DNA of 64,000 nt from Ostreococcus lucimarinus. Lineage: Eukaryota. The translations under genes and the position numbers were made by a program. Positions 5,300-64,000 of the stretch are shown here, piece by piece. The first letter of the stretch is position 1; each line of letters opens with the position of its first letter. The DNA lies in the NCBI GenBank assembly GCA_000092065.1, contig CP000601.1; one strand, given 5' to 3'. The notes under the pieces are model-generated. The model ran no database searches and had not been told where the DNA came from. It saw only the letters and a list, made by a program, of their open reading frames with translations.

Positions 5300-5399
5300 T
5301 GTCTTTCTAGGTGACACTGAAGCGGAACAGGGTGGAGATGTGGACTCGGGCAACTCTTCCGACATGTAAGCTTGTCCTTTATAGTGAGCCCACACCGAT

Positions 5400-5696
5400 G
5401 TGAGCGCAAGTCATTTTTATGCACACAGTGACATCTTCATCGAATACCAGACGTGGTTGCCAGCGGCTGCGCGCGGTCAAGATAGCGCGACGAAGGTCGG
5501 CAATAAGCTCAAGGACTTCTTCAAGAAGGAAAAGGGCCACAGGGTCCCAATGGAAGAGGACCACCTGAGGCAAGGTAGAGACGAGAAGGGCGTCTATTGG
5601 GAAATTCACCGCGACGGGTGCTTCGAGTGGCTGAAGGACAATGGGTACACAGGGGAGACGGAGCTCGCGCCGGCGGTCGTCTGGTGCTCATACTAA
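5400..5696 (+). CDS. Hypothetical small protein (98 aa) in the lower-GC island
   Basis: Intact ORF with lower GC than its flanks. No recognisable domain. Confidence 0.3.
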   Translation: MSASHFYAHSDIFIEYQTWLPAAARGQDSATKVGNKLKDFFKKEKGHRVPMEEDHLRQGRDEKGVYWEIHRDGCFEWLKDNGYTGETELAPAVVWCSY

Positions 5697-5761
5697 TTTT
5701 GTAATTCGTACATTTGCAATATGAAGACTCAACGAGACACCAAAAAGACCATGGTTTGGAT

Positions 5762-5951
5762 CCTGACGAAATGACGAATGACGAACTGTTTTCATAAAGG
5801 TCCACACTGTTGCTTGTCATAGATCTAAAATAAAAATAAACATTAAAATATTTTAACATTTCGTCATTTTCATCATTGGTACACACAAAGTGTCACCGAA
5901 CGACGGGTTGACGAATTTGTGGACGACAAAACAAGTTCGTCATTTCGTCAG
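5762..5951. repeat. AT-rich segment flanked by 17-bp inverted repeats (CTGACGAAATGACGAAC at 5762-5785, GTTCGTCATTTCGTCAG at 5935-5951)
   Basis: The reverse complement of 5935-5951 equals 5762-5778. The roughly 150 bp between them is strongly AT-rich, in contrast to the roughly 68% GC of the surrounding sequence. Confidence 0.7.
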
Positions 5952-6130
5952 GTCTCGACGGATCACGAACGTCCAGGTGTGAAATCAGGCGGTTCGGTAT
6001 CTACATTCCGGACCTTGCAGCCCACGCAGCGATACGCGTACCTATGGTCTCTCGGATGTGACTGCAAACCGCAGGAGGAGGCACTTTTGGCAACAATATT
6101 TTCTTAGGGATAGATAGGTAACCAGGACAA

Positions 6131-45766: not shown

Positions 45767-47947
45767 TCATCGCCCGTCGCAGACGTCCGCGACGTCGTCC
45801 GGTCGTCCGACGATGACGTCTTCGCGGTCGATGGTGACCATGCCGAGCCTGGCGCCCTTGGGCTTTTTCACGTACTTAGGAGACGTGTACGAAACGTTGA
45901 CTTTGCCGCCCGTTCTCACTTTCGAATGAAAGCTCGCGACGTTGGCGGCGAATTGGATGTCGTCGTCTGAGGCGGTTTCGCCTGGTTGTTGGCGAAGGAT
46001 GACGTGCGCGCCCGGGGCGCCGCGAACGTGAAACCACACGTCTTGGTCTTGTCCGAAGAAAAGCGAAACCGCTTCGTTTCCGCGGCTATTTCTTCCGCAG
46101 TACACCTCCTTTCCACTCGGCGCGGTATAGATGCGAATGGCGTTCATCATCTCTTGCTTACGCGCTTGCTTACCGGTTTTCGGCTTCGCGCCGCCGCCCT
46201 TCTTCGCCGCCGCCATCGCGCGCGTCTTCGCGTCGGCGCCCTTGCCCGTGGGCTTTAAGAATCCACCGTCCACGAGTTCGGCGCCAATTTCCTCGATGAA
46301 CAATAAATCGTCGCGCGATTTGAACTCGCTGACTTCGAGAATACTAAATTCGACGCCCTCTAAATACTCAATCTCGCTCGCATTTTGTTCGATGAGCGGC
46401 TCGACGGCGTCGGCGGTGCGACGCAGCTTTCTCGTCTTTTTGTACAGCGCCTCGGCGGTGCCCACAGGACCTTTCTCGGGATCTACTTTAAACATCACTG
46501 TCTCGCCCGTGGTGAAGTCTTGACCCTCAAGCTCGCTCGAACCAGGCTTATAGTTGTAACTGTACGCCATCAACGCGTCGGCGAGCAGTTGAATTTCTTC
46601 GTGCCCGCTCGCCGCCTCTAATTGCTTGCGGAACCCAACGTCTTTGCTCGCCAACTTTTTCAGACGCGCGCGCACGGCTTGTAAAATGCGCGAGCGTTCG
46701 CGCTCGAACACGTCGGTTTCGCCCGCTTCGCCGTACACAGCGCCGAAAAGAGCGCCGATCGGCCCGCCGGCAACGCTCAAATCGTCGGCGGCGGGCGGCA
46801 AGACGACGCCCGCGGACGACGGGTGCAATAACAACTGCCCGAACTCTTCGCACCACGTGGCGTTTGCGAGCGTACCCGCACTGTCGGCATCACTTGAAAC
46901 GCTCGCAATCCATCGCATGAACTCATCGTACACGGCGACCCAATCGCTCGCACTCGCGGTTTCGACGCGCTCGCCATCGGCGACGCCCGCGCCGCGAATC
47001 AACGCCTTGGCCAAAGCCGGTGACACCCCTCGAAACGCGCGCACCATGCACTCATCCAAACGCGCTTCGCCCATATCACCACTGCGACCGCGTGCGACGT
47101 CGCGCAACACCGCGGTCCATCCGTCCACGCCCCCTTCAACCCCGGTCGTGGGATCGATCCCGGGCGCCGAGGGCGGCGGCTCGTACGCGTACCCGATCGC
47201 CAATCGCCGCACACTCGTCTGTTTCTCCCCAACCTGATACCCACACGCTAAAACTTCATCATTATTTTTACTATCAAGCAAGAACGCGTTGCTGTACCGC
47301 CCCATGACCTCACACAACAGCTCGTACTCTGCCTCACCTCCCGGCCTATCGCCGAATCGCAACCGACACGCGCGTTCCCACGCCGTCCCCACGCGCGCAT
47401 CCAGCAGCACCTTCCCCTTGAGCAGCGCGTTCGCGCTCTCGCCAAAACTAAGATTCATCCCCTTCTCCACCTTGGCCCCGCGCGCGCTCATCGCGACGTG
47501 CGCGGTCACCGGGTGCCAACTCACTCGCACGCTCCGCCGTCCATCCGCCGCGCGCGCGTCCAGCGTCATCGAGTGCGCGTCCACCTGCGCGCACGCGTCG
47601 ATCTTCACCGGCGTCGACAGCGCGTTTATCTCCCGCACGCTCGCGACGAGGGCGGTGTAATCGAACGTCGCGGGCGTCGCGCGCGCGGCGCGAACGACGA
47701 CGAGCGAGCGGCGGTGACGCGGCGACGGCGCGCGCCGCGGCGACGCGAGCGACGCGATGCGCCAACGCGCGCGCGCGGGGATGCGTGACGCGCGGTACAT
47801 GACGCCGAGCGCGGGCGCGGGCGGGCCGCGGGCGCGCCGCGGGCGGACGCGCGCGAGGGAAAGTGAGGACGCGGCGCGAGCGGGACGCGAAGCGTCTCGG
47901 CGAAAGGTTCGGCGCGCGAATGAATATCTGGCGATGAGCGTTGACAC
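45767..47947 (-). CDS. NFACT-family protein (RqcH/NEMF/Tae2/FbpA-like)
   Basis: NFACT-N/FbpA region plus an NFACT-R (DUF814) block DVWFHVRGAPGAHVILRQQPGE...NVASFHSKVRTGGKVNVSYTSPKYVKK. Confidence 0.8.
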   Translation of the reverse strand: MSTLIARYSFARRTFRRDASRPARAASSLSLARVRPRRARGPPAPALGVMYRASRIPARARWRIASLASPRRAPSPRHRRSLVVVRAARATPATFDYTALVASVREINALSTPVKIDACAQVDAHSMTLDARAADGRRSVRVSWHPVTAHVAMSARGAKVEKGMNLSFGESANALLKGKVLLDARVGTAWERACRLRFGDRPGGEAEYELLCEVMGRYSNAFLLDSKNNDEVLACGYQVGEKQTSVRRLAIGYAYEPPPSAPGIDPTTGVEGGVDGWTAVLRDVARGRSGDMGEARLDECMVRAFRGVSPALAKALIRGAGVADGERVETASASDWVAVYDEFMRWIASVSSDADSAGTLANATWCEEFGQLLLHPSSAGVVLPPAADDLSVAGGPIGALFGAVYGEAGETDVFERERSRILQAVRARLKKLASKDVGFRKQLEAASGHEEIQLLADALMAYSYNYKPGSSELEGQDFTTGETVMFKVDPEKGPVGTAEALYKKTRKLRRTADAVEPLIEQNASEIEYLEGVEFSILEVSEFKSRDDLLFIEEIGAELVDGGFLKPTGKGADAKTRAMAAAKKGGGAKPKTGKQARKQEMMNAIRIYTAPSGKEVYCGRNSRGNEAVSLFFGQDQDVWFHVRGAPGAHVILRQQPGETASDDDIQFAANVASFHSKVRTGGKVNVSYTSPKYVKKPKGARLGMVTIDREDVIVGRPDDVADVCDGR

Positions 47948-47977
47948 GCGCGCGCGTTCGTTCGGTCGGTCGTTTGT

Positions 47978-49108
47978 CTAGGATGTCTTGGCCGATTTCG
48001 GGGTGACTTCCTCGGCGCGCGTCTCGCGAAGGAAGACGCGGTCTTCGGGCTTGTTGTTCTCTCGCTCTTCGTGCGCGTACGAAGACGCGATGGCGAGCAA
48101 GGACCCACAAGGACTGAAAGCGAGCGCTGAGATGGAGGTGGGGTAGCGGGGCGACTGAAAAAGTCGCTTTTTAGCGTCGCCATCCCAAAAATTGACGTAA
48201 CCGTCGCCGCCGCCCGTGGCGAATGTGCCGTGGACGGGATGAAACGCCACCGCGTGGACGGGATAAACAATCTCACCCACGCTCGCGTCATCGGTTTTGC
48301 GATGACACTTGAACGCATATTTTCGCTTGTCGTTCTCTTCATCGCGTATGAACTCCACCGCTACGCGTCCCTCGACGCTCGCGGCCACGAATCCATCGCC
48401 TCGGATATTTGCTGCGATGGCGCGCGTTTGAAACCGCATGCTCGAACGTCTATTTATCAACGGACGCGGCGGCGCTTCCGACGCGCGTCGTCCGTCATCA
48501 CCATCCACACCGCGCACTAAATCTCGCGTCTCGTACGCCAAAACTTGCCCATCGCTCGTCGCCACGAAAATCTTACCGTCTCTCAAATCCGCCGCGTAGC
48601 ACTTCCCAGCCGTCTTCGTCGTCGACACCGCGCGCCCTCGCTCGTCCTTCGTCAAATCCCACGCCCTAATCGTTCGATCCCAGCCAAACGTAAACAATTT
48701 CTTCGTCGCATCATCGTACTCCACCGCCGACACCGCGCCGTCGTCGTGCGCGCCGACGACGCGAAACGCGCCAGTTTTAAAATCGACGAGGCGCACCGAC
48801 CCGTCGAGGCATCCCACGCACGCCGCGTCCTCATCCGTCCCGACGAACGTCCCGCACAGCGCGGGCGCGCCCAAATCGATCGAGTTCAACGATTTCACGT
48901 CCCCGATCTCGCGCGCGCGGCACGCGTACCGCCGCGCGGTCCCGTCCCAGGACGTCACCAGGAGCGTCAACCGTCGCGCCATCCCATCGTCGTCGTCGTC
49001 GCGACCCTCTCCCGCGCTGACCGCGCAGAACCGCACCGCGCTGACGCCGTCGCCGAACGCCGCGCCTCCGGCCCCTCGCACGTCGCGACCGAGGTCTCGA
49101 TGCGCCAT
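47978..49108 (-). CDS. BUB3: Mitotic checkpoint protein BUB3 (WD40)
   Basis: YAFKCHRK...VYPVHAVAFHPVHGTFATGGGDGYVNFWDGDAKKRLFQSPRYPTSISALAFSPCGSLLAIASSY...EDRVFLR matches the BUB3 C-terminal blades almost motif for motif. Confidence 0.85.
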   Translation of the reverse strand: MAHRDLGRDVRGAGGAAFGDGVSAVRFCAVSAGEGRDDDDDGMARRLTLLVTSWDGTARRYACRAREIGDVKSLNSIDLGAPALCGTFVGTDEDAACVGCLDGSVRLVDFKTGAFRVVGAHDDGAVSAVEYDDATKKLFTFGWDRTIRAWDLTKDERGRAVSTTKTAGKCYAADLRDGKIFVATSDGQVLAYETRDLVRGVDGDDGRRASEAPPRPLINRRSSMRFQTRAIAANIRGDGFVAASVEGRVAVEFIRDEENDKRKYAFKCHRKTDDASVGEIVYPVHAVAFHPVHGTFATGGGDGYVNFWDGDAKKRLFQSPRYPTSISALAFSPCGSLLAIASSYAHEERENNKPEDRVFLRETRAEEVTPKSAKTS

Positions 49109-49324
49109 CGCGCGCGCGCGTCTCGCGCGCGCACCGCGCGCGCGTCCCGACCGTCACCGCGACGACGTCGTCGTCGCCCGCGCGCGCATCGGTTTATCGC
49201 CGATCGACGACGGTCAAACGCGCGTTCGGGCGCCGTCTCGATCCATGTGCGATCGCGATGACGCGCGCATAAATAATCATCGCCGCGACCGAACGCGCAT
49301 TGCGACGCGCGCGAACGCCGTGTC

Positions 49325-52300
49325 GTGCGAGCGCGTCTCGCGCGGGCGTCGCGCGCGCACCGCATTTCGCGACGGCGGTCGATGCGGGCCCCGTCGCGCG
49401 CGCCGTGCGCGTCCGCGCGCCCGGAGGCCGGCGTCGTCGACGCCCTCGATGATCTCGCCGCCGTCGACGCCCGCGCGTGCGGCATCGGCAAGCTCACGAT
49501 CGCGCACGACGACGACGACGACGACGCGCGAGGTCTCCGCCATCGCGACCGCGGCGCGTTCGCCCTCGATTTGCGCGCGTGGTCGTTCACCGCGCGCACG
49601 CAGCCGGTCCGCGCGCTCGGGGCGTGCGCGCGAGACGCGTCCGTCGACATGCGCGTGCCGTTCAGGGACGAATACGAGCGACACAGGGCGTCGCGACCGG
49701 ACGAACGCGCGCCGCGAGGGGCGAGTTGGCGCATCCATCGAGTGCGAGGATGGCGCTTCGACCTGCGCGCGCTGTACGAGGAGGTGAAAAGACGCGGTGG
49801 CGCGGACGCGATCGATGGAAATCAAGGCTGGCGCGAGGTCGCGGAGGCGATCGGGGCGCACGGACGCGGATGCGCGGCGGGACACGCGGCGAGAGCGCTG
49901 CACGGGGCGTGGCTGGAGGCGTTCGCGCGCGACGCCAAGCGAAGAGAAGACGCGGTGAAGAGCGCGCAGTTCGACGCGGTGAAGGGAGAGATCGAACAAG
50001 ATGACGCGCTGGCGATCGATGCGCTGTGTGGGCTCGAATTTGGGGCGTCGGGCGCGCCCGAACGGCGAGTCAAGGTGGAAAATGTGCGTAATTCGTGCCA
50101 TATCTTCTTCGCGCGGGACCGGGATGACGGCGAATCGCACGCGTTCGCGGCGCGTGCGACGCGCGCGCGCGATGATGGGCGTCGCGATGACGTGCGACTG
50201 ACTTTTACGGCGCGTGTTTTCGCGACGCAGGGCCTCGATCTCGTCGCCTCGCAGCTCGCGGACGCGCCCGAGGGCGACGCCGACTGCGACGTGTGCGGCG
50301 CGAGCGGGAACGAAGACGCGATGATCCTGTGCGATGGGTGCGATCGAGGGTGCGTATACGACAATGCCACGCGAGAACGCGCGCGTGAAAATTATCTCGA
50401 TCGTTCGGACGCGCGTTCGGGGAGAGAGAGCGCTCGCGCGGCGCGCGAGGGCGCGGCGAACGCGCGCGTGGGCGACGGTTAGACGTGGGGTTTAGAGGCG
50501 CGCGGGGGAGAAGGAGCCGCGAAGGAGCGACGAGACTGACGAATGATGCGCGCGTAGGTCACATATGTACTGCTTAACGCCGAAGATGACTGAAGTGCCG
50601 AGTGGAGAGTGGTTTTGTGGACGATGCGAAGAGATTGACGCGGAGGTGGAGCGATTGAGCGCGGATGAAGGGACGCAGTTTACGCTCGGCGATTTCAACG
50701 AGGCGTGCATAGAATTTGATACGGCGTTCTTTGGCGAGGACGCCAAGCGAACTGGGATCGATATGCAGGTGATTGAGGAGTGTTTCTGGCGAATGGTTGA
50801 AGATGCGAGCTCGGTGGATGATGTTTGCGAGGTCAAATGCGGCACGGCGATTGACACGACAAAGTACGGAAGCGGGTTCCCGAGACACGGCGAAGCGCTT
50901 CAGGTAAAGATTGACGGCGTGAGCCCGGAATCTATCAAGCGCTGGTCAGAGTCGAAATGGAATCTCAACAACGTCGCGCGCGCGAGTGGGGAAAAGTCGT
51001 CGCTACTGGGCGCGTTGAAGGATGACGTGGCGGGCGTGACGACGCCATTCTTAGAAGTCGGAAGCACGTTTAGTTCCACGACTTGGCGTCGAGAAGAGCA
51101 TAACATGTACAGTATCACTTACAATCACTGGGGTGCCGCGAAACTGTGGTACTGCGTGCCGGCGAGTGCAGCGGACAAGTTGGAAGAATGCTTCCAGAAG
51201 GTGATGCCCGACGTCTACGAGGCGCACGTCAACGATTTGGGAAGCGTCTTTACGATGCTCTCGCCGAGCTTCTTGATGAGCGCGGGAGTGCCCGTGCACA
51301 CGTTGGAGCAATTCCCAGGAGAATACGTGGTGACGTATCCCGGGGCGTACTACGCGTCGTTCAACTGTGGATTGAACTGCACGGAGAGCGTCAACTTTGT
51401 GCCCGCTGACTGGCTCCCAGAGGGCTCGGCGAGCGTGGAGAGAAACCGATCGTACGCCAAGCGTTCATTGTTTAGTCACGACGAGTTGGTTTGCAGAGTA
51501 GCAAACAATCCTAGTTCGAGCATAGCGCCGCACTTGTGGCCCGAGATTGCGCGCTTGTACGCTGAAGAGGCAAACGGTCGCGCCGAGCTTTTCGCGTCTG
51601 GCGTGACGCGCAGCGCGCAAATGACGTCAGCAGACGACGACGACGACGACGATGGCTGCGAAAAGCCTCGTAAAGTACGATCTAGGTTTGACGATGCATC
51701 GAACTCTGGATCCGATGAGTGCGTTGTTTGTCGACACATTTTGTACTCGTCTGGCGTCGGGTGCTCGTGCGACGAGACGCGCAAGGCGTGCTTGCGACAC
51801 GTCAACGACTTGTGCAAATGTGCGATGTCGAAGAAGACGATGTTTTACAGAGAAACAGTGGCTGATTTAGAAAGTCTGGTGAAGAAGACGGAGAAGGCGC
51901 TTTCTCAGAAGGAACTAGCCAGCTTAAAATCCAAGCACAGCGACTTGGACTCAGTCACAGTGAACAAGAATCTCGTCAAGAAGGCTCAGGCTTGGGTGAA
52001 ACGAGTGGGCGAAGAGCTCGTCAAACCACCTTTGCCGCCGCTGGACAAGATGAGAAATTTACTCGCTGCGGGTGAAGAGTTTATTTGGGGTGGTGCTGAT
52101 ATGAAGGCGGCTCGAGAAGCGTACACTCGCGTGACGAACGCCGTCGCGTGGCAGACGAGTCTTGTGGCGCTGAAGCAAAGGCTTGGATCCAGTGCTGGTG
52201 CCGAGGCCGCGCACGATGACGCTGGTGAAGCGCGATTGAGATTGAACAGACTAAAAGAGCTCCTTGACAACCCACCGGTACCGATGCCTAAGGCTGATAC

Positions 52301-55300
52301 TCAACCTTTCCGCGATTTGCTCGCGGCGGGCTTGAAATTGGAGGAACGCATCAAGGCGGCTCTCGCCGAGGTACCGAATCCATCTCCTCGCGCTTGTACG
52401 ACGCTTCAAACTGAAGCGAATAAGTTTGGTGTGGAAGTCCCTTCATATAAAAAGCTGAAGGACGTCATCGTTAGAGCAGGCGCGTGGTCCACGAAGGTGC
52501 GCGGCGCGCTTCCAGGACGACGACAACTCCCGCCGCGCGAGGAACTAGCGAATGCTCGAGAGATCGAGGCGTTATACGAAGAGGCGCATGGATTACCCGT
52601 TCAGCAGAGCGAACTCTTGACTTTGCGCAAATCTTTAGAAGAGTTGAATTTTTGGCGCGCAAAGTCTGAGTCGCTGTTCGTCGCCAAGGTTGACGTGGAA
52701 GAAGCCGAGGCGCTTCTCAAGGAGGGCATGGCGTTGTCAACAAAACTCGACGAGGTCGACAGACTAGCCGATCAAATCAAAGCTGTCAAAGTGTGGGCCG
52801 ATCATGCTCGAGCGAGTGATTATCCGGGAGCAAGAGTGACGGATTTGCACATGCTTCTCGTCGAGGGTGAAAAGTTTAGCGTGCGAGTGGACGAAGTCGA
52901 GTGGTTGCGAAACCGTATCGTCGTCCGGGAGCTGGCAGAGAAATTGAAGGACATGGTTTCATCGAAGAAATATCCGCTCGCCGAAGTCGAAGCGGCCGTG
53001 CGGGCGGGTAACGAGTTCCTCGACTCCGAAGATAAAGAGGTTGCCCCAGATGAAGAAGCGCTGCTGGCGCAGTGCGAGAGCCACATCAACGCGGCGAAGA
53101 AGTGGAACGAGCGCGCGGCGGTGATGCTCAAATCTCTCGATAGTAAGGACCGACCGTCACTCGAAGACGCCGCGTCGCTCATCCGCGAAGGAAGCTCGAT
53201 TCCAATCTTTCTGAATGGATTCGACGTGCTTTCAGAAGCGGTCAATGTAGCCAAGTCTTGGTTGGATCGTGCACAACCTTGTTTGAAGGGAAAGCAGCTC
53301 ACTCGTCGCGGTGTGTCAAATCCGATTCCGCCGCTTTCCGAGGCGCAAGAGCTCATGAAAGAGTCTTCGAACTTGAAATTGTTTGTCAAGGAAGTTGAAG
53401 CTTTGGAAGAACGCGTCGAAGCCGCAGAAGAGTGGGACGTGGACGCGAAGGACGCCATCGAGCGCTGGCGAGAAGACGGCGCCGAGGTGACGTTGACCGA
53501 GCTTGAACTTTCGCACGAAGACTTTGGATTAGAATTACCAGCCATGGAGACAGTTCGCATTCGTTTAAAGTCGCTCAAGTGGGAAGAACGCGTCGCTAAG
53601 ATCATTGCACCCAAGGCGAAGCTCGTCGAGGACACCGTTTTGGACGAGCTCAGGGAAGAAATCGACGTGCTTCAAGACTTGAAAGAGGATCTTGTCGCTG
53701 AAATCATGAAACGGTACACGATTGTGGACGAATGGCGCAAGAAAGCGGATCGTTTGCTCGATCCTCCTCTCCTTGAAGACGGTCGATTGGCTCCGAGTGC
53801 ATCACCGGAGGAAATAGACGCCCTCATCGCCGAAGGCAAGGCACTTCCCGCTGACGTCTCGAAGGTAGAAGACCTCGAGGCGTCGTTGGCGGATCACGCA
53901 CAGTGGGTCGACACCGTTCGTAAGTGCTTGAACAGTGTCGCTGAAGGTCGATCTCGCCCTTCGATTGACGAATTATACGATCTTCTAGCGGAGGTGGAAG
54001 ATTTGACCTTCAAGTGCTCAGAGAGACAAGCGCTCACAAATGCGTGCAACGCCGCCACGGCGTGGACGGAGAGGCTCAACGCGTTGCTCTGGGCAAACGA
54101 TCAGGGTGAAGTCAAACAAGAAAAAACGCTTATCGAAATGTTGAGCAATGTTCTTGATTCCATCAAAGCTGGTGTGGAAGACATCACCGGGACTGGCGAA
54201 CCGCCGGAGACGGAGGAGGGTTAGTTCTGCCTTTGTCGACAAGCTGGAGGAATTCAAATGGTTGGATGTGATGATTGCGGTGACTGGTATCACTTAAAAT
54301 GTATCAATGTGACGCCTACTATGGCAAAGACGATGCACAATTACATCTGTCCGCCATGCATCGCGAAGAGTGGCAAGGCGAGCGCACTCTCGTTGGATAC
54401 GTATCGCTCGGTGCATCGCACCAATCGCCCAAACGTCATGCTTTTGCGAGAACTCCTCGGTGAAGCGCAGCGATTTCCTGGAGAAGTGCCAGAAGAAGCC
54501 GTGTTGAATCAAGTCATCAATACTCACGACGCGTGGCGATTGGAAGTACGAAAGACTTTGCATAGAAAGAGTATGAAGGAAGCACACGACAACGCCATCA
54601 GTCAAGCTTCGAAGATTGCCCAAGAAGCAGCGATGAGAGAATCTGAGGAACGCACACGACGAATCGCCGAAGCGTCGCTCGCGGCGACTGCAGAGAACCC
54701 CAATCCTCCAGCTTCTCTCACGCCATTACAGCAAGTCATGCTGATGGGTCAAGCTGTCACGTTCGCCGCAACGCAGCGCACGCACGCGTTGAACATTTCG
54801 CCGTGTTCGCAGGAGATTTCAGATGTCGTCACAAAGCAGCTCGGGCAACTTCAACAGCTCGCCATGCAACTCGCGATGTGCCAAGCTCAAATTCACATGG
54901 CTCCAGTTCGGTCTAGGCCCCACATCCTCCACGTCTTGATGATGCAGCAACAGCATCTAAAGATGACAAACGAGCACGAGGAAGAGCTGGCAAATGTTGG
55001 CGCTAGCAACTGGCTCATGGAAGCGACTCTGCAACTATCTGGAATGTCTGGCATGATGCCGCCGCCGACGGCGCAAGACACCGGCAAAGAACCTTCAACA
55101 TCCACGGGTCATGGTAGTCCAAGCGATATGTCTGCTCAGTTGAAGACGAACGAACCGATGATGGTTCCGCAGCAGTTCATGTTGCAACCGGCCATGCCAT
55201 CGCTTGTCGGCGACGCGTCTGGAATGCCCAAGCAAGAGATGGATTACACGTATGACATTCCTCGAAAAGATAATGTCGATCCAGCGCTGCAAGTGTACGC

Positions 55301-56087
55301 GGGCATGAAGGGTGCTCTGGCGATGGAGCTGGAACCTGTTGAGGAGACGCTCGCGTTGATGCGCGAAGTGTGCGGTCCGGCGTGGAGAGAACAAGCCACG
55401 CGGCTCATGACTGGTGCGCCGTTCCCGAGGTTGATCAAGCTTCACGAGCTCAAGGAATCTGCCATGGCTGCTGGTCTTTGCCCTGGTGCCGGCATTGATC
55501 CTTTGGCCGATCGCGCGCACGCGTTGGAGGTTGCTGGACAAATCTGGCTCGAACGCGCCGCCGCCGTCGTGCAAGACAAAACGATTCCTATCGAGGCGGC
55601 GCAGTTGCTGCTTCAAGAGGGTCGATCTTTGCCTTTATACTTGAAGGAGGAGCTCGAGGAGTTGGGAGAGCGATGCGAACTGTATTGCGTTTGCCGAAGC
55701 GCGTACGACGCTCTCAGGCCGATGATTTGCTGCGATCGATGCGATGGTTGGTTTCATTACGAGTGCATCGGCATGCAGTCGCCGGCGCCGGGCGAGGAAG
55801 ACGAAAACGCCGAAAACGTCAAGTTTGCCTGCCCAGAGTGCTGCGCGGCGCAAGGTATTCCGTACGTTCCGTTCCGTCCAGCGCCGAAGGACACGGACAA
55901 AGCGCCGGAGCGAGCCGCGCCTCCGCCGGCTGAAGAAGCTCCGGAGCCGCCAAAGACGGAAGAAGAAGCGAAGCCGCCCGCTAAACCAGAACCGGAAGTC
56001 GCGGACAACAAGAAGAAACGAAAAACGGTGGAGCCGACTCCGCCTGCTAATAAAAGTACCTCTAGTCGCAGCAGAAGACGAAAGTAG
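49325..56087 (+). CDS. KDM5: KDM5/JARID1-type JmjC histone demethylase (ARID-PHD1-JmjC-C5HC2 ZnF-PLU1-PHD2-PHD3), interrupted by one clear intron (50350..50556) and an in-frame TAG at 54222..54224
   Basis: ARID block FDLRALYEEVKRRGGADAIDGNQGWREVAEAIG. PHD1 is split by the intron (CDVCGASGNEDAMILCDGCDRG | SHMYCLTPKMTEVPSGEWFCGRCEE). JmjC core HNMYSITYNHWGAAKLWYCVP...FNCGLNCTESVNF, then a C5HC2 zinc finger. Downstream PHD fingers FCLCRQAGGIQMVGCDDCGDWYHLKC...CPPC and CVCRSAYDALRPMICCDRCDGWFHYEC...CPEC. Confidence 0.8.
50350..50556 (+). other. KDM5: Spliceosomal intron of the KDM5 gene (207 nt, GTGCGT...GTAG), splitting PHD1
   Basis: Splicing gives CDGCDRG-SHMYCL, a canonical C-x4-H-x2-C PHD spacing, in frame. 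Confidence 0.8.
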
Positions 56088-56135
56088 TTCTCTAGATTTA
56101 CAACATTTGACACAATAAACAACAACTTCAATAAT

Positions 56136-57362
56136 TCAACCGTCCAGGTGCTCGTCCCATCCCAGGTCTCGTTTCGGCTTGCGCCTACCGACCAACTTGG
56201 CCGCGTCCAGTTCGGTCAACAATTCAATTTCGTCGAGTGTTTCCTCGCTCACATCGATGTCGTCCGTCACCGCGAGCTTTTGACCCTTTCTATGACGCTC
56301 GACGAGTTCTTCGAGATATCCTTGCTTTGCGTAGTTCGGTATCAACCTAGACATGTACACGCCGCGCAAAATACGTTTTTCTTCCTCAGTCAAATCGCCG
56401 TGAAACCCTCGGCGGTTGATCCGGTCCGTCACGGCGTGCGACATCACGAGCGCGGCGGCGACGGAAATGTTCAAAGACTCGGTGAAGCCAAACATCGGAA
56501 TGTACACGGCGCCATCCCGCAGCGCTCGCGCCTCGTCCGAAACCCCCTCGCGCTCGTTCCCAAACACCACCGCCGTGGGCACGGTCCAATCGTAATGCGA
56601 CAGCGGCTGCGCGCCGTCAAACTCAGTCGTAAGAACGCGGTATCCTTTCGCCTTCGCGACTCTGAGCGCGCGTTCCGACGTCTCAAACTGCTCCACGTGT
56701 TGCCACTTCAGCGCCCCTCCCGACGTCCTCCCGCTCGCCTTGAACGACAGCCCCTTCGAGCTCACGATCGACGCGCACCCGATCCCCAGCGCCTCCGTCG
56801 TCCGACACACCGCCAAGATATTGCCGACGTCGTAGACGCCCTCTAGAATCGGCAGCAACGAAAAACTTCTATGCTCCAAAACGTTTTCCAGCCGCATGCG
56901 TCGCTCTTCCCCGACCATCGCCGTCGCGAGCGCCACCATCGTCTCCGTCTCGCACGTCGCCCTCGCGAACGCGAATCCATCGCCGTACGGGAATCTTTCC
57001 CTCTCGTCCTCGTTCGCGCGCGTCCCCAAATCTTCCCGCCGCGCCCGCACCAGCCCGTGAAACTCCAGCGCGTCCGGCGCCCACGCGCGCTGCCTTCGGT
57101 GCGCCTTCGCGCTCTTCGTCGCCACCGCGCCCGTGCGCGCCACCGCGCGCGTCGGTCGCGGCGTCGTGCGCTTCACGACGACGTCGTGCGGGCCGGCGTG
57201 CGCGCGCGACCCCGGTTCCGACACCGATTCCGATTCCGCCGCGTCGTCGTCGCGCGCGCGTCGCGTCGCCGGTCGAGCGACGCGCGCGGCGCGCTCGCGA
57301 GCGTCGCGTCGATTCGCGTCGATTCGCGATCCCGCGCCCGCGATCGCGCGCGTCGACGCCAT
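56136..57362 (-). CDS. SpoU/TrmH-family RNA 2'-O-ribose methyltransferase
   Basis: SPOUT motifs VVFGNEREGVSDEARAL...YIPMFGFTESLNISVAAALV. N-terminal presequence-like region. Confidence 0.78.
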   Translation of the reverse strand: MASTRAIAGAGSRIDANRRDARERAARVARPATRRARDDDAAESESVSEPGSRAHAGPHDVVVKRTTPRPTRAVARTGAVATKSAKAHRRQRAWAPDALEFHGLVRARREDLGTRANEDERERFPYGDGFAFARATCETETMVALATAMVGEERRMRLENVLEHRSFSLLPILEGVYDVGNILAVCRTTEALGIGCASIVSSKGLSFKASGRTSGGALKWQHVEQFETSERALRVAKAKGYRVLTTEFDGAQPLSHYDWTVPTAVVFGNEREGVSDEARALRDGAVYIPMFGFTESLNISVAAALVMSHAVTDRINRRGFHGDLTEEEKRILRGVYMSRLIPNYAKQGYLEELVERHRKGQKLAVTDDIDVSEETLDEIELLTELDAAKLVGRRKPKRDLGWDEHLDG

Positions 57363-57520
57363 TCGAATCGCCGCGCGACGCGAAGTGTCGACATCGCGTC
57401 GCGCGGCGATTCGAATCGCGTCGCGCTCGAACGGCGTCGCGTCCTCGCGACGCGCGCGCGATGACGCGCGAACGTCGCGCGCGCGCCGCGCGGTCGCGGG
57501 GCGCGCGCGCGCGCGAGACG

Positions 57521-59032
57521 ATGGCGGCGGTGACGCTCGGGACGTTTTTGGTGTTGGGACGCGCGGGCGCGTTTCGCGGCGCGAGCGCGCGGCGCGCGCC
57601 GCTACAGGCGATGGACGCGGGCGCGGGAAGCGCGGGAGGGACGGCGTCGCGGCCGGCGCGGCGATGGATGACGCACCTGCTGCGCGATCACCCGGAGATG
57701 CGATGCACGCAGATTCCGAGCAAGCCGGTGATCGTCGGCGGCGACGGCGGCGGCGCGGGAAAGCCGCTGATGGAATTCCTGAGGGATTCGAACGCGGTGA
57801 CGTTCGGACCGACGGATAAGGATGGGAACAGCGACGCGGAGCGGTTGAGCGGGTTGGATGACATGGTGGTGGACGTCATGGCGTTTTCGAAGCGGTTGCT
57901 GTACGAACCGGATGATTTGCCGATGGATTTGCAAGCGGATTTAGCGAAACATTTGTGCGATATGTTTGCGAGACAGGAGAAGTGGTTGCACCCGGGATTG
58001 ACGATGAATGGGATACAACACGATCAAGAGGTCGGGCGGTGGGGATGGAAGGATCCGTTGGCGATGTATTTGGTGCCGATTTGGAGAGACGTGTACGGGC
58101 CGTCGGTGACGTACGTGCACTTGGTGCGGGATCCGCGGACGCTGCCGCTCGGGAATTTGCACGACAAGGAGCGGGATTTACAAAAGGCGTACTTTGGTCA
58201 AGAGCGATGGGAGCAGTTGACGGCAAAATTTGAATCCGAGTGGGCGCATCTCTCCCAGCACCAGTCGATGACGAGCGTGAAGAAGGACGACGTGATTGAT
58301 TTATTGCGCACGACGGCGTACTGGACGTCCATCAACTTTGAGCTCGGGGCGCTCATCAAGGGCCCGCTCAAGAACTACGCCACGGTGCTCCGGGCGGAGG
58401 ATTTGGTGCAACCGGACATGGATCACTTCCGACGCGACGCCACCGGGAAAAAACCGGAAAAGTACCAAGCCGCGCAAAAAGTCATGCAAGAGCTCACGAC
58501 GCTCCTCAAGCTCCCGGCGAAACTTTCCAACACGCTGGGAAGCCACGAACACATGAAGCAAAACCTCCGACGGTTCACGATCCACCGCGAAAAGTTCGTC
58601 TACCGCACCGACTCCCCCATCATCGAAGTCCAAACCCGCATCGCCGAGAAGACGTTGGAACTCTTCGGCTACTCCGCCGACGCCGCGCTCTTCGTCTCGC
58701 GGCACCCGTCGTCGAGCGAGCCCCACGGCCATCGTCTCACCCCCGAGGGCGAGTACATGCACGAGGAGCACAGGTATACTCCCGACGATTTCGAGCCCAC
58801 GATCGAACCCGCGTCGGAGGGCGATCTTCCCGGCATCACCAACCACGTCCTCGGCGCTCAGCTCAAGTACACCGACCGCGTCGAGCTCGAGCGCGCCAAG
58901 ACGCGCGCGCCCGACACGGAGCAATCTCGCGCCGTCGAGGCCCAGCTCATGGAGGCTAAGAAGAAGACCTTTTTGCTCGAAACCACCAAAATCGACGGCA
59001 AGTCTCTCAAGGACGTCATCGACCATCTGTGA
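57521..59032 (+). CDS. Hypothetical secreted protein (signal peptide; weak sulfotransferase-like RDPR motif)
   Basis: MAAVTLGTFLVLGRAGA signal-like start. HLVRDPRTL resembles the sulfotransferase 3'-phosphate-binding motif, but no convincing 5'PSB motif is present. Confidence 0.45.
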   Translation: MAAVTLGTFLVLGRAGAFRGASARRAPLQAMDAGAGSAGGTASRPARRWMTHLLRDHPEMRCTQIPSKPVIVGGDGGGAGKPLMEFLRDSNAVTFGPTDKDGNSDAERLSGLDDMVVDVMAFSKRLLYEPDDLPMDLQADLAKHLCDMFARQEKWLHPGLTMNGIQHDQEVGRWGWKDPLAMYLVPIWRDVYGPSVTYVHLVRDPRTLPLGNLHDKERDLQKAYFGQERWEQLTAKFESEWAHLSQHQSMTSVKKDDVIDLLRTTAYWTSINFELGALIKGPLKNYATVLRAEDLVQPDMDHFRRDATGKKPEKYQAAQKVMQELTTLLKLPAKLSNTLGSHEHMKQNLRRFTIHREKFVYRTDSPIIEVQTRIAEKTLELFGYSADAALFVSRHPSSSEPHGHRLTPEGEYMHEEHRYTPDDFEPTIEPASEGDLPGITNHVLGAQLKYTDRVELERAKTRAPDTEQSRAVEAQLMEAKKKTFLLETTKIDGKSLKDVIDHL

Positions 59033-59135
59033 GGTGTAATTAAAACCAAACGCGCCTCGCGCGTCCCGCCGCGTCGCGAACGACCGTTCAAACCCGCGCG
59101 CTGGATGTGCGTCACATCGCGCCCGGTCGTCCGTC

Positions 59136-61569: not shown

Positions 61570-64000
61570 ATGCCGTCGCGCGCGAGAGACGTCGCGCGAA
61601 CGACGCGCGACGTCGCCGCGAAAGAGATTGGATTGTTGAGCTCTGGAGCCACCACCGCGGAGCGAAGTTTTTGGGACGTCGTCGGCGCCGCCGTCGTTTC
61701 CGCGGACGATGACGACGCTTCGCGAGAGGACTCGAACGCGCCGCTGCGCGCGGGAAGCTGCGTGGCGATGTACGCGCTCGGGGCGAGGGAAGGACGAGGG
61801 ATGTACGCGGCGCGGGACGGCGGCGGTCGGTCGACGCGCGCGAACGACGCGCCGGCGGCGACGGAGGGGAAGCGCGCGCTGGAGTTTTCGTGCGCGACGC
61901 TTCGGCGAGACGGAGTTTCAACGTCGACGTCGGCGAGTGGGGGTGGCGCGGACATCGATTCGTTGATGCTCACGGCGAGAGACGCGTCGACGCAGTTGGT
62001 GGTGCTGAGATTTGGCGAATTCTACGGGTTTCGTTCGCACGCGGCGGGGGGGAAGCTTTTGCAAGCGAGACGCAAGGCTGCGAGCGAGCTGTGCTTTTAC
62101 AACTACAACTTTGGAGTGTGCGAACAATGGGAACTGGTGAGCGTCGATCACGAGCGTGCGACGTACGGACGGGCGATGCTGTTTAGGAATAGACGCTTCG
62201 AGCACGTGACGATCAACGCCGCGGTGGTGGAGGTGCCGAAGGAGTTTTTGCCAAAGTATGCGTTGGATGATATGAGTCTCTACGACGATGATTTGGCGTA
62301 CGTGGAATATGGGACGTCGTACTACGGCAGTGACACGGAATCCGAATCGTCGGTGCTCAATCTAAAACCTTTGGCGGCGCCACCGAGTCCGAGCGCCGCA
62401 GCAAACGCGTCGCCGTCGAAGCCAAAATCGAAACAGAAGCGAGTCGAACAGCAACCCGTGTTGATCGAGCCACCGAAACCGGCCGAGTCTGCACCAAGTT
62501 GGCTTTCCGCCGCCATAGTAGAAAAGTGGACGCGCATATTCAAAGACGAAATTGAAATCCGTCGCGGTGTGGAGCGGGAGCTGGAAGGTTTGCGAGAAGA
62601 GCTGAAAATAGTGGAGAAGAGCTGGATGAACTCGGTACAAACGGTACAGTTAGAGTTTGAGTCTATCAACAATGAAGCTTTGAAGACAATGCGCAAGACG
62701 ATGCAGCAAAAGATGCGAAAGCGCGTTCAAGCGGTTCAGGTGAAAGCGATAGAGCGCATGACGCGGACGTCTGCACGCGCGTTCAGGGATGAAACTTTTA
62801 AAAGGTGGAGAGCGTTTGCGGATAAGGAACGTCGAAAGCGCGTCGGCGTCGTTCGGTTCTTATTACGGGCTGATAGACGAGGTCTCGGCGCGGCGTTTGA
62901 TGCTTGGAAGAATTACGCGAACACTCGAAAGTTGAAGCGCGAGAGGGACGCGCTGTTGAGCGCGAGGCGACGCGAGAGTCTTGCTCGACAATTCTTTGAT
63001 AGATGGAAGTCGTGTGCTTCGGAATCAAATCAAACGCGTCGAATAGCCGCGAGGGCGCATAGACGTGCGTTGACTGATAAATCCAGAGAGCTGAAGCAAA
63101 AAGTGTTCGTATCGTGGTATTTGTACGCGAAACGAGGGAAGCATGTCGCAAAGATTCAGCGTCTCGCGGTGCACAAGATGCGTGAGCGTCTGATGTTTGA
63201 CGCGTTTGAGTGTTGGAAGAACCGAGCGGAAGAGAGAAAAAGTTTCACTCAACGTCTGATGCGGACGTTCGCGCGCTGGGATAACCGCACCGCATGCGCA
63301 GCGTTTTTGAAGTGGAAAGAAGTCGTGGACGATTCACGTCATGCAAAGAAGACGTACAACGGCGTGTTACTGTGCTGGAACAAGGACTCACGCAAGACGC
63401 TGACGAAGCTTCACTTTTTCGCATGGAGAACGACTGCTCGATTCGTACGGGTGCATCGCGAAAAGATGTATGCCGTCACGCGGGAACGCATGAAAAATAA
63501 CACAACGCGAATCGTCTTCCATAATTGGAAAATGCTGAGTGCGCGACGGCAGCGCGAGGAACAACATCAGAGAGGCGTCGTGCACGCGATGGCGTCGTTG
63601 CGGTTCAAATATATTCGAGCGAATTTCGACGCTTGGCGATCACAAACGATCAAGTCTGCGTTCCGTAAACACACTGTCTCAAAGTTTATGAACAAACTAC
63701 GTCGTTACGAACTGTTGAGAGCGTTCCAAGGCTGGAGATACCGCACGCATACGTTGAGAACGCAGAGACGAAGCGTAGCGGCGACGCTAACGAGATGGCG
63801 TCAACGTGTGTTGTTGAGTTCGTGGAACCAATGGAAGTTCGCCACTCAAGAGCACTCTAAGTTGATCGCTGTGAGCGCGTTAGCCATCTTTAACCGCCAA
63901 CGACAGTCTCGACTGCGCCGAAGTTTCGCGATTTGGCGCGGCATGTGGCGGGCGCAAATGGTCGCTCTCGTCAAGATGCGCGCGTCGCACCAGTTCGCCA
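61570..64000 (+). CDS. SFI1: Sfi1-like centrin-binding repeat protein (partial; continues beyond the window end)
   Basis: Open frame without stops from at least 61570 to 64000. It is absent from the ORF track because it has no stop within the window. At least 14 repeats of a roughly 23-33 aa unit with the conserved [F/L]xxW[K/R] core (AFDAWKNY, FFDRWKSC, AFECWKNR, AFLKWKEV, FFAWRTT, NFDAWRSQ, AFQGWRYR, LTRWRQR, FAIWRGMW). Confidence 0.6.
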   Translation, partial: MPSRARDVARTTRDVAAKEIGLLSSGATTAERSFWDVVGAAVVSADDDDASREDSNAPLRAGSCVAMYALGAREGRGMYAARDGGGRSTRANDAPAATEGKRALEFSCATLRRDGVSTSTSASGGGADIDSLMLTARDASTQLVVLRFGEFYGFRSHAAGGKLLQARRKAASELCFYNYNFGVCEQWELVSVDHERATYGRAMLFRNRRFEHVTINAAVVEVPKEFLPKYALDDMSLYDDDLAYVEYGTSYYGSDTESESSVLNLKPLAAPPSPSAAANASPSKPKSKQKRVEQQPVLIEPPKPAESAPSWLSAAIVEKWTRIFKDEIEIRRGVERELEGLREELKIVEKSWMNSVQTVQLEFESINNEALKTMRKTMQQKMRKRVQAVQVKAIERMTRTSARAFRDETFKRWRAFADKERRKRVGVVRFLLRADRRGLGAAFDAWKNYANTRKLKRERDALLSARRRESLARQFFDRWKSCASESNQTRRIAARAHRRALTDKSRELKQKVFVSWYLYAKRGKHVAKIQRLAVHKMRERLMFDAFECWKNRAEERKSFTQRLMRTFARWDNRTACAAFLKWKEVVDDSRHAKKTYNGVLLCWNKDSRKTLTKLHFFAWRTTARFVRVHREKMYAVTRERMKNNTTRIVFHNWKMLSARRQREEQHQRGVVHAMASLRFKYIRANFDAWRSQTIKSAFRKHTVSKFMNKLRRYELLRAFQGWRYRTHTLRTQRRSVAATLTRWRQRVLLSSWNQWKFATQEHSKLIAVSALAIFNRQRQSRLRRSFAIWRGMWRAQMVALVKMRASHQFA

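What the first reader, a model, noticed from the sequence alone, without database searches (positions are those of the whole stretch)
54150..54260. Single in-frame TAG splits the KDM5 gene between the PLU-1 tail and PHD2/PHD3
The 1219-aa ORF (JmjC, C5HC2, PLU-1 region) ends at TAG 54222-54224. The same reading frame continues immediately with FCLCRQAGGIQMVGCDDCGDWYHLKC...CPPC, a complete PHD finger whose first Cys pair starts only one codon after the TAG, and then a further PHD finger. This is exactly the domain order of KDM5 proteins. The AG of the TAG could be a 3' splice site, but no in-frame GT donor at a plausible distance is evident, and the candidates would give 51-53-nt introns. Alternatives are a sequencing or assembly error, a recent nonsense mutation, programmed read-through, or an atypical micro-intron.
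Basis: seen in the sequence. Interest (0 to 1): 0.55.

Follow-up and report, generated by a model that had tools for sequence, protein, structure and literature searches.

The report
Strain-private nonsense mutation truncating KDM5 gene
The in-frame TAG is real, but it is an ordinary single-base (CAG to TAG, Gln to stop) mutation private to the sequenced Ostreococcus lucimarinus CCE9901 strain, and it made the reference annotation split one KDM5-type histone demethylase gene into two "predicted proteins".

Summary
TAG at 54222-54224 ends a 1219-codon ORF (JmjC, C5HC2, PLU-1), and the same frame continues straight into a complete PHD finger, a helical region and a second PHD finger.

The window is Ostreococcus lucimarinus CCE9901. 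The reference annotation holds exactly these two pieces as separate genes: XP_001421122.1 (1544 aa, ending ...PETEEG at the TAG) and XP_001421121.1 (609 aa, starting at ATG 54258 inside the PHD finger).

- **Wild relatives:** fifteen environmental contigs, 99.1-99.8% identical to the window, all carry CAG (Gln) at this codon and one uninterrupted 1841-codon ORF. Three more distant relatives also have Gln there.
- **No intron:** the flanks are collinear with no length change. The 17 codons before the TAG diverge like coding sequence.
- **Not an assembly error:** the T is reproduced in a separate read-set assembly (SRR1179203) that is 100% identical to the window over 11.5 kb.
- **No read-through signal:** TAG is a normal terminator here, the context (UAG-U) is not leaky, and no RNA structure follows.

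Verdict: a derived C-to-T nonsense mutation private to the reference strain. It predicts a KDM5 lacking its last 621 residues (PHD2, helical region, PHD3). Interest is low beyond an annotation and strain-background caveat.

The parts
49382..50349 (+). Exon 1 of the KDM5-type gene. It holds a divergent N-terminus, ARID (49739-49924) and the first half of PHD1.
   Evidence: Splicing this exon to 50558 and reading to the TAG gives exactly XP_001421122.1, 1544 aa. Pfam finds ARID.
50350..50557 (+). Canonical 208-nt GT..AG intron inside PHD1 (gtgcgt...gcgcgtag).
   Evidence: Removing it restores CDGCDRGSHMYC, the C-x2-C-x4-H-x2-C spacing. The spliced product equals the reference protein exactly. 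Pfam then calls PHD1 at residues 302-346.
50558..54221 (+). Exon 2, the part still translated in this strain. It holds the second half of PHD1, JmjC (51051-51398), KDM5_C-hel (51408-51515), C5HC2 (51720-51878) and PLU-1 (best stretch 53103-54086).
   Evidence: Pfam hits; coordinates converted.
54222..54224 (+). Premature stop codon TAG (Gln1545 to stop in the 2165-aa reconstructed protein). It is a C-to-T change at 54222.
   Evidence: Fifteen wild conspecific contigs have CAG. Another Ostreococcus species has CAA. P0049 and P0051 have Gln. The Logan assembly of SRR1179203 has TAG. The reference protein ends immediately before it.
54225..54359 (+). PHD2 finger (FCLC...CPPC), now downstream of the stop.
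   Evidence: Pfam PHD. It aligns from two residues before the first Cys with the Spp1, CFP1, BPTF and ING PHD fingers.
54360..55682 (+). Helical and low-complexity region between PHD2 and PHD3, with weak PLU-1-like similarity near its start.
   Evidence: Weak Pfam PLU-1 match at residues 66-142 of the C-terminal part. It is conserved in relatives. No non-synonymous polymorphism occurs anywhere downstream of the site in wild haplotypes.
55683..55841 (+). PHD3 finger (YCVCRS...CPEC).
   Evidence: Pfam reports PHD stretches. The motif was located.
56085..56087 (+). Natural stop codon of the gene, also TAG.
   Evidence: All wild ORFs end at the same place.
54258..56087 (+). Reference gene model XP_001421121.1 (609 aa, 'predicted protein'). 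It starts at the first ATG after the premature stop and lacks the first Cys pair of PHD2, so it is most likely an annotation by-product.
   Evidence: Exact match to the NCBI and UniRef entries. The PHD alignment shows the missing Cys-x-Cys.

Best explanation
The TAG is a genuine, derived single-nucleotide nonsense mutation (CAG Gln to TAG, C-to-T at 54222) carried by the sequenced strain O. lucimarinus CCE9901. It was not seen in any wild population sampled here.

Shown: the wild-type gene is one KDM5/JARID-type H3K4 demethylase gene of two exons, encoding about 2165 aa (ARID, PHD1, JmjC, C5HC2, PLU-1, PHD2, helical region, PHD3).

Inferred: in this strain translation stops after residue 1544. 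That gives a protein that keeps the catalytic core and the PLU-1 region but lacks the last 621 residues, including both C-terminal PHD fingers. PHD2 resembles H3K4me3-reader fingers. The long 3' region after the stop may instead lower mRNA levels through nonsense-mediated decay. The 609-aa downstream 'gene' of the reference annotation is a gene-caller by-product of this mutation, not an independent gene.
For: 1. Species and annotation: the 609-aa ORF equals XP_001421121.1. My spliced product ending at the TAG equals XP_001421122.1. The published reference therefore has the stop.
2. A Logan assembly of run SRR1179203 is 100% identical to the window over 47565-59087, TAG included. Every wild contig differs from the window at 14 or more sites, so that run comes from the same strain.
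3. Fifteen distinct environmental contigs (Tara, ENA, JGI, Logan), 99.07-99.81% identical, all have CAG and an uninterrupted 1841-codon exon-2 ORF. The cluster listing shows full-length 1841-aa ORFs on at least 53 contigs.
4. Outgroups: L001 has CAA. P0049 (75% id) and P0051 (33% id) read GEPPE[TS]EEGQ|FCLCRQ within single JmjC...PLU-1...PHD...PHD ORFs. Gln is therefore ancestral.
5. The downstream part is under purifying selection in the wild: 9 synonymous and 0 non-synonymous polymorphic codons.
6. TAG is an ordinary terminator in this window, including this gene's own stop.
Against: - I could not find out what SRR1179203 is, so its independence from the reference is inferred. The inference rests on its accession type and on the published annotation already containing the stop.
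- No transcript or protein data were available. Truncation, nonsense-mediated decay and the absence of read-through are inferred, not shown.
- Metagenome contigs are population consensus sequences, so a low-frequency TAG allele in nature is not excluded.
- The downstream 1.86 kb has no further disabling change. This fits a recent mutation, but it would also fit residual function.
Confidence: 0.9

Rival explanations
1. Sequencing or base-calling error: the strain really has CAG and an intact gene.
For: Only one base differs from the wild type. The identity of run SRR1179203 could not be verified.
Against: The stop is in the published annotation, where both gene models are bounded by it. It is also in a separate read-set assembly that is 100% identical over 11.5 kb. 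The window carries other private substitutions in the same region, so it is a distinct haplotype and not a wild-type sequence with one error.
Confidence: 0.03
2. Atypical micro-intron: a 51-53-nt interval ending at the AG of the TAG (or an intron starting at GTTAGT 54220) is spliced out and restores one ORF.
For: GT at 54172 and 54174 and AG at 54223-54224 exist, and the 51-nt candidate is in frame. Short 40-65-bp non-canonical introns are known in Ostreococcus, but on chromosome 2 (PMC2367439).
Against: - The wild-type alleles have the same length and a sense codon, so no splicing is needed.
- The 17 codons before the TAG differ from L001 mainly at third positions and keep the amino acids. 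They are also conserved as GEPPE[TS]EEGQ in P0049 and P0051.
- In-frame acceptors after a donor at 54220 would give 24- or 30-nt introns that delete the first Cys pair.
- The gene's real intron is 208 nt, and the genome mean is about 188 nt.
Confidence: 0.01
3. Programmed stop-codon read-through or TAG decoded as Gln: a full-length protein is still made efficiently.
For: The stop replaces a Gln codon. TAG=Gln is the usual meaning where TAG is reassigned in other lineages (my own knowledge). The downstream ORF is still intact.
Against: - The stop is not conserved in any conspecific or related sequence, so it cannot be an evolved signal.
- TAG terminates this gene itself, the neighbouring WD40 (BUB3-like) gene and other long ORFs in the window.
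- The context UAG-UUC-UGC matches none of the known leaky contexts, such as UAG-CARYYA or UGA-CUAG (my own knowledge).
- The 120 nt after the stop fold no better than shuffles, z = +0.9.
- CAG to TAG is simply the one-step transition.
Confidence: 0.03
4. Functional gene fission: the C-terminal PHD-helical-PHD part is expressed on its own from an internal promoter, or by reinitiation at ATG 54258. The strain would then have a separate demethylase and reader protein.
For: The reference annotates a 609-aa protein. An ATG lies 34 nt after the stop. The downstream ORF is intact.
Against: - The product from ATG 54258 lacks the first Cys-x-Cys of PHD2, so that finger cannot bind its first zinc.
- Reinitiation after a 1544-codon ORF is very inefficient in eukaryotes (established knowledge).
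- There is no intergenic spacer for a promoter.
- No wild sequence shows such an arrangement.
Confidence: 0.04

Closest known systems
Strain-specific premature termination codon (nonsense polymorphism or incipient pseudogenisation) in a reference or culture strain
   Same: A single-base change turns a sense codon that is conserved in conspecifics and outgroups into a stop. The flanks are collinear, the downstream ORF is still intact, and gene callers split the gene into two models.
   Different: Nothing unusual. The only special point is that the affected genome is the species reference, and that the locus lies in the segment duplicated onto chromosome 21, so it is annotated twice.
KDM5/JARID1 H3K4 demethylases (human KDM5A-D, Drosophila Lid, Arabidopsis JMJ14-18 group)
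   Same: ARID, PHD1, JmjC, KDM5 C-terminal helical domain, C5HC2 zinc finger, PLU-1 region, then PHD2 and a C-terminal PHD3, in that order. UniProt names the N-terminal model [histone H3]-trimethyl-L-lysine(4) demethylase.
   Different: JmjN was not detected by Pfam or by comparison with solved structures. The PLU-1 region is long. In this strain the protein ends before PHD2.
Short non-canonical introns (40-65 bp) of the Ostreococcus chromosome 2 low-GC region
   Different: The candidate interval here is conserved coding sequence and is present in intact wild-type ORFs. The locus is not on chromosome 2, judging by the double annotation on Chr 9 or 13 and Chr 21.

Membership tests
Nonsense (premature stop) polymorphism | The stop codon aligns with a sense codon in conspecifics and outgroups and differs by one base. 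| tested here: met
   TAG versus CAG in 15 wild contigs. CAA in L001. Gln in P0049 and P0051.
Nonsense (premature stop) polymorphism | The flanking sequence is collinear, with no indel or frameshift at the site. | tested here: met
   Alignments. The only length difference in the ORF is a 3-nt deletion 2.6 kb upstream, in a poly-Asp run.
Nonsense (premature stop) polymorphism | The variant is real in the organism and reproducible in independent data. | tested here: met
   The published gene models are bounded by the stop. The Logan assembly of SRR1179203 is identical. Caveat: the nature of that run is unknown.
Nonsense (premature stop) polymorphism | A truncated protein or decayed mRNA is produced. 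| not testable with these tools
   No transcript or proteome data for this strain were reachable.
Spliceosomal intron | Bounded by GT..AG, restores the frame, evolves as non-coding sequence, and its length is free to vary between relatives. | tested here: not met
   GT..AG candidates exist. However, the interval shows codon-wise conservation and identical length in relatives, and the wild-type ORF is continuous without splicing.
Programmed stop-codon read-through | The stop codon and its 3' context or structure are conserved among relatives. | tested here: not met
   No relative has a stop. The +4 base is U. Downstream folding gives z = +0.9.
Stop-codon reassignment (TAG = Gln) | TAG is not used as a terminator, and in-frame TAGs are widespread at Gln positions. 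| tested here: not met
   TAG ends 14 of 56 long ORFs in the window, including this gene's own end and the neighbouring WD40 (BUB3-like) gene. The conspecific ORFs have no internal TAG.
KDM5/JARID1 demethylase | JmjC catalytic domain with the KDM5 C-terminal helical domain and the C5HC2 zinc finger. | tested here: met
   Pfam: JmjC 2.8e-31, KDM5_C-hel 7.3e-07, zf-C5HC2 5.6e-14.
KDM5/JARID1 demethylase | ARID and PHD1 inserted before JmjC. | tested here: met
   ARID at residues 120-181 and PHD1 at 302-346 after removal of the intron.
KDM5/JARID1 demethylase | JmjN domain at the N-terminus. | tested here: inconclusive
   No Pfam hit at E<=1 and no match to solved KDM5 N-termini. By eye, residues ~14-41 (PEAGVVDALDDL...GIGKLTI) loosely resemble the JmjN motif. 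The tests were by sequence only, on a GC-rich divergent N-terminus.
KDM5/JARID1 demethylase | PLU-1 region followed by C-terminal PHD fingers in the same polypeptide. | tested here: met
   Met for the wild-type allele and for relatives. Not met for the CCE9901 allele, where the stop separates them.
KDM5/JARID1 demethylase | H3K4me2/3 demethylase activity. | not testable with these tools
   Needs an enzyme assay or ChIP.

The most novel reading that the evidence does not exclude
The species' reference strain carries a real truncation of a KDM5-type demethylase in both copies of the duplicated locus. Either the truncated enzyme, stripped of its C-terminal PHD reader fingers, gives the strain an altered H3K4 methylation landscape, or the severed PHD-helical-PHD module is still expressed separately. 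The second case would be a gene fission caught at its first step. In either case chromatin work in CCE9901 would be done on a mutant background.
Probability: 0.08. Interest if true: 0.4.

Novelty: new member of a known kind. Interest (0 to 1): 0.15.

Why it matters
- **Annotation:** XP_001421122.1 and XP_001421121.1, and their chromosome-21 duplicates XP_001422832.1 and XP_001422833.1, are two halves of one gene. UniProt and EukProt propagate a 609-aa 'PHD-type domain-containing protein' that begins inside a PHD finger.
- **Strain background:** the reference strain of an ecologically important picoalga probably lacks the C-terminal reader module of a KDM5-type H3K4 demethylase that wild populations keep under purifying selection. 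This is worth knowing for epigenomic or comparative-genomic use of this genome.

It does not reveal any new mechanism.

Tried and rejected
- **Homologue search:** The search for homologous proteins with a 580-aa junction-spanning query returned only one protein, P0001, although the 90% cluster holds 265 members. Progress came from exact look-ups.
- **Identity of the run:** a literature search for SRR1179203 found nothing. The paper that mentions CCE9901 and resequencing concerns viruses, not the host.
- **Palenik et al. 2007:** not held under the two ids I tried. The chromosome-21 statement therefore comes from PMC2367439.
- **Metagenome pattern scan:** the Y-degenerate 38-mer gave only two contigs, both CAG, one of them already known.
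- **Relaxed selection in the reference lineage:** the window-private changes in the gene are R137 (wild K), a one-Asp deletion, the stop, S (wild A) and I (wild L), with no synonymous change. Downstream of the site the wild contigs show 9 synonymous and 0 non-synonymous polymorphic codons. By hand, 2:0 versus 0:9 gives Fisher p of about 0.02. I do not rely on this. The neighbouring genes show 2 non-synonymous and 2 synonymous private changes, the numbers are tiny, and consensus contigs hide rare variants.
- **Read-through structure:** none found.
- **JmjN:** not found.
- **Literature on KDM5 in Ostreococcus:** none surfaced among the listed results of one search of the held library.

Full report
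**1. Observation**

The sequence shows GAG GAG GGT TAG TTC TGC CTT TGT, with TAG at 54222-54224. This TAG closes the ORF 50565-54224 (1219 aa). The same frame continues FCLCRQAGGIQMVGCDDCGDWYHLKC...CPPC and stays open to 56087.

Pfam places JmjC, KDM5_C-hel, zf-C5HC2 and PLU-1 in the upstream ORF. It places two PHD fingers plus a weak PLU-1-like stretch downstream. An ORF in another frame just upstream carries ARID and the first half of PHD1. The description is accurate.

**2. Organism and public annotation**

Exact look-ups show that the 609-aa ORF from ATG 54258 is XP_001421121.1 / ABO99414.1, a 'predicted protein' of Ostreococcus lucimarinus CCE9901.

I found a canonical 208-nt GT..AG intron at 50350-50557 inside PHD1. 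Removing it restores CDGCDRGSHMYC. The product ATG 49382...50349 + 50558...54221 is exactly XP_001421122.1 / ABO99415.1. It is 1544 aa, and UniProt names it [histone H3]-trimethyl-L-lysine(4) demethylase.

The published reference therefore contains this stop and annotates the two halves as adjacent genes. Each protein has a second accession pair (ABP01191.1 and ABP01192.1). This fits the reported origin of chromosome 21 as a fusion of duplicated pieces of chromosomes 9 and 13 (PMC2367439). Both copies apparently carry the stop.

**3. Is the TAG an artefact?**

A Logan assembly of run SRR1179203 contains an 18.9-kb contig that is 100% identical to the window over 47565-59087. The TAG, the intron and the intergenic DNA are all included. 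Every environmental contig differs from the window at 14 or more positions over the same span. That run therefore comes from the same strain. I could not find what the run is. Together with the published gene models, an assembly or base-calling error is unlikely.

**4. What relatives have at this position**

The same 90% cluster contains uninterrupted 1841-aa ORFs, seen on at least 53 contigs in the listing. All the listed proteins that span the site read ...PETEEGQFCLCRQ....

I retrieved 15 distinct contigs from Tara, ENA, JGI and Logan samples. They are 99.07-99.81% identical to the window. All have GGT CAG TTC at the site and a 1841-codon ORF.

More distant relatives agree:
- A contig from another Ostreococcus species (L001; its protein is 83% identical) is collinear and has CAA.
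- P0049 (1809 aa, 75% identical) and P0051 (2285 aa, 33% identical) both read GEPPE[TS]EEGQ|FCLCRQ. Each is a single ORF with JmjC, C5HC2, PLU-1 and two PHD fingers.

Gln is therefore ancestral, and the window's TAG is a derived C-to-T transition.

**5. Alternatives**

*Micro-intron.* The candidates ending at the AG of the TAG (54172 or 54174 to 54224) exist. However, the interval differs from L001 mainly at third codon positions, and its peptide is conserved in distant relatives. The wild-type alleles have the same length and need no splicing. A donor at GTTAGT (54220) would need a 24- or 30-nt intron that removes the first Cys pair. Genuine introns here are much longer: 208 nt in this gene, with a genome mean of about 188 nt. 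The 40-65-bp non-canonical class is a chromosome 2 feature.

*Read-through or reassignment.* The stop is not conserved. TAG ends this gene itself, the neighbouring WD40 (BUB3-like) gene and 14 of 56 long ORFs in the window. The context UAG-U is not a known leaky context (my own knowledge). The following 120 nt fold no better than shuffled sequence, z = +0.9.

*Gene fission.* The 609-aa model begins at MVGCDDC. Alignment with the Spp1, CFP1, BPTF and ING PHD fingers shows that the domain starts at (Q)FCLC. That model therefore lacks two zinc ligands.

**6. Consequence (inferred)**

The reconstructed wild-type protein is 2165 aa:

| Domain | Residues |
|---|---|
| ARID | 120-181 |
| PHD1 | 302-346 |
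| JmjC | 488-603 |
| KDM5_C-hel | 607-642 |
| C5HC2 | 711-763 |
| PLU-1 | up to 1499 |
| PHD2 | 1546-1590 |
| PHD3 | 2032-2084 |

The CCE9901 allele stops after residue 1544. It keeps the catalytic core and removes 621 residues, including both C-terminal PHD fingers.

In wild haplotypes this C-terminal part shows 9 synonymous and 0 non-synonymous polymorphic codons. The upstream part shows 10 and 4. The C-terminal part is therefore functionally constrained in nature, and its loss is probably a partial loss of function.

The only intron lies upstream of the stop. Any nonsense-mediated decay would therefore have to be of the long-3'-UTR type. This is inference.

The downstream ORF carries no further disabling change, which suggests the mutation is recent. 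The window has two private non-synonymous changes downstream (A to S at 54675, L to I at 55434) and none that are synonymous. The numbers and the controls are too weak to claim relaxed selection.

**7. Comparison with what is known, and verdict**

This is an ordinary strain-private nonsense mutation in a KDM5/JARID-type gene. The gene meets the KDM5 architecture except that JmjN was not detectable by sequence. No paper on this gene in Ostreococcus surfaced in the one search of the held library.

The finding matters as an annotation correction, because two 'predicted proteins', each annotated twice, are really one gene. It also matters as a strain-background caveat. It is not a new mechanism. 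Interest is low.

Noticed in passing
window 49382-56087 (whole locus): Both reference gene models have two accession sets (ABO99414/5 and ABP01191/2; XP_0014211xx and XP_0014228xx). The locus is therefore annotated twice in the CCE9901 genome. This fits chromosome 21 being a fusion of duplicated parts of chromosomes 9 and 13 (PMC2367439). Both copies yield identical stop-bounded products, so either the nonsense mutation predates the duplication or the duplication is an assembly feature.
   Followed up: partly
window 49382-50349 versus 50558-56084: Composition differs sharply within one gene. Exon 1 has GC 0.705 and GC3 0.80. Exon 2 has GC about 0.55 and GC3 0.59-0.63. The neighbouring genes have GC3 0.74-0.79. 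Other low-GC stretches occur in the window at 4001-6000 and 62001-64000.
   Followed up: no
window 51633-51653: The poly-Asp run (DDDDDDD) is one codon shorter in the window than in all 14 wild contigs. This is a private in-frame 3-nt deletion, reported after position 51632.
   Followed up: partly
window 50350-50557: The PHD1 intron position seems conserved. The prokaryote-style ORF calls of the relatives P0049, P0051 and P0060 all place JmjC at about residue 163, as in the window's exon-2 ORF.
   Followed up: partly
window 49601-49696 (residues 74-105 of XP_001421122.1): A 31-residue stretch between the N-terminus and ARID (QPVRALGACARDASVDMRVPFRDEYERHRASR) matches the N-terminus of ribosomal protein uL22/L17 from several PDB entries at E about 0.003-0.008. 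This is probably a chance match in Arg/Ala-rich sequence. It was not examined further.
   Followed up: no
window 49382-49738: No JmjN domain is detectable upstream of ARID by Pfam (E<=1) or against solved structures. By eye there is only a loose PEAGVVDALDDL...GIGKLTI resemblance. Either the domain is very divergent or the 5' end of the gene model is incomplete.
   Followed up: partly
L001 10180-10760 and the whole locus: The related-species metagenome contig (JGI 3300046170, Ga0494229_05909) carries several 1-nt indels relative to the window within 580 nt. Its KDM5 is called as many small ORFs. It looks like an error-rich assembly, so its frameshifts should not be read as biology.
   Followed up: partly
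window 54222-54230 and 56085-56093: The premature stop and the natural stop of the gene share the same immediate context, TAG TTC T. This is probably coincidence. It does show that this context terminates translation normally in this gene.
   Followed up: no
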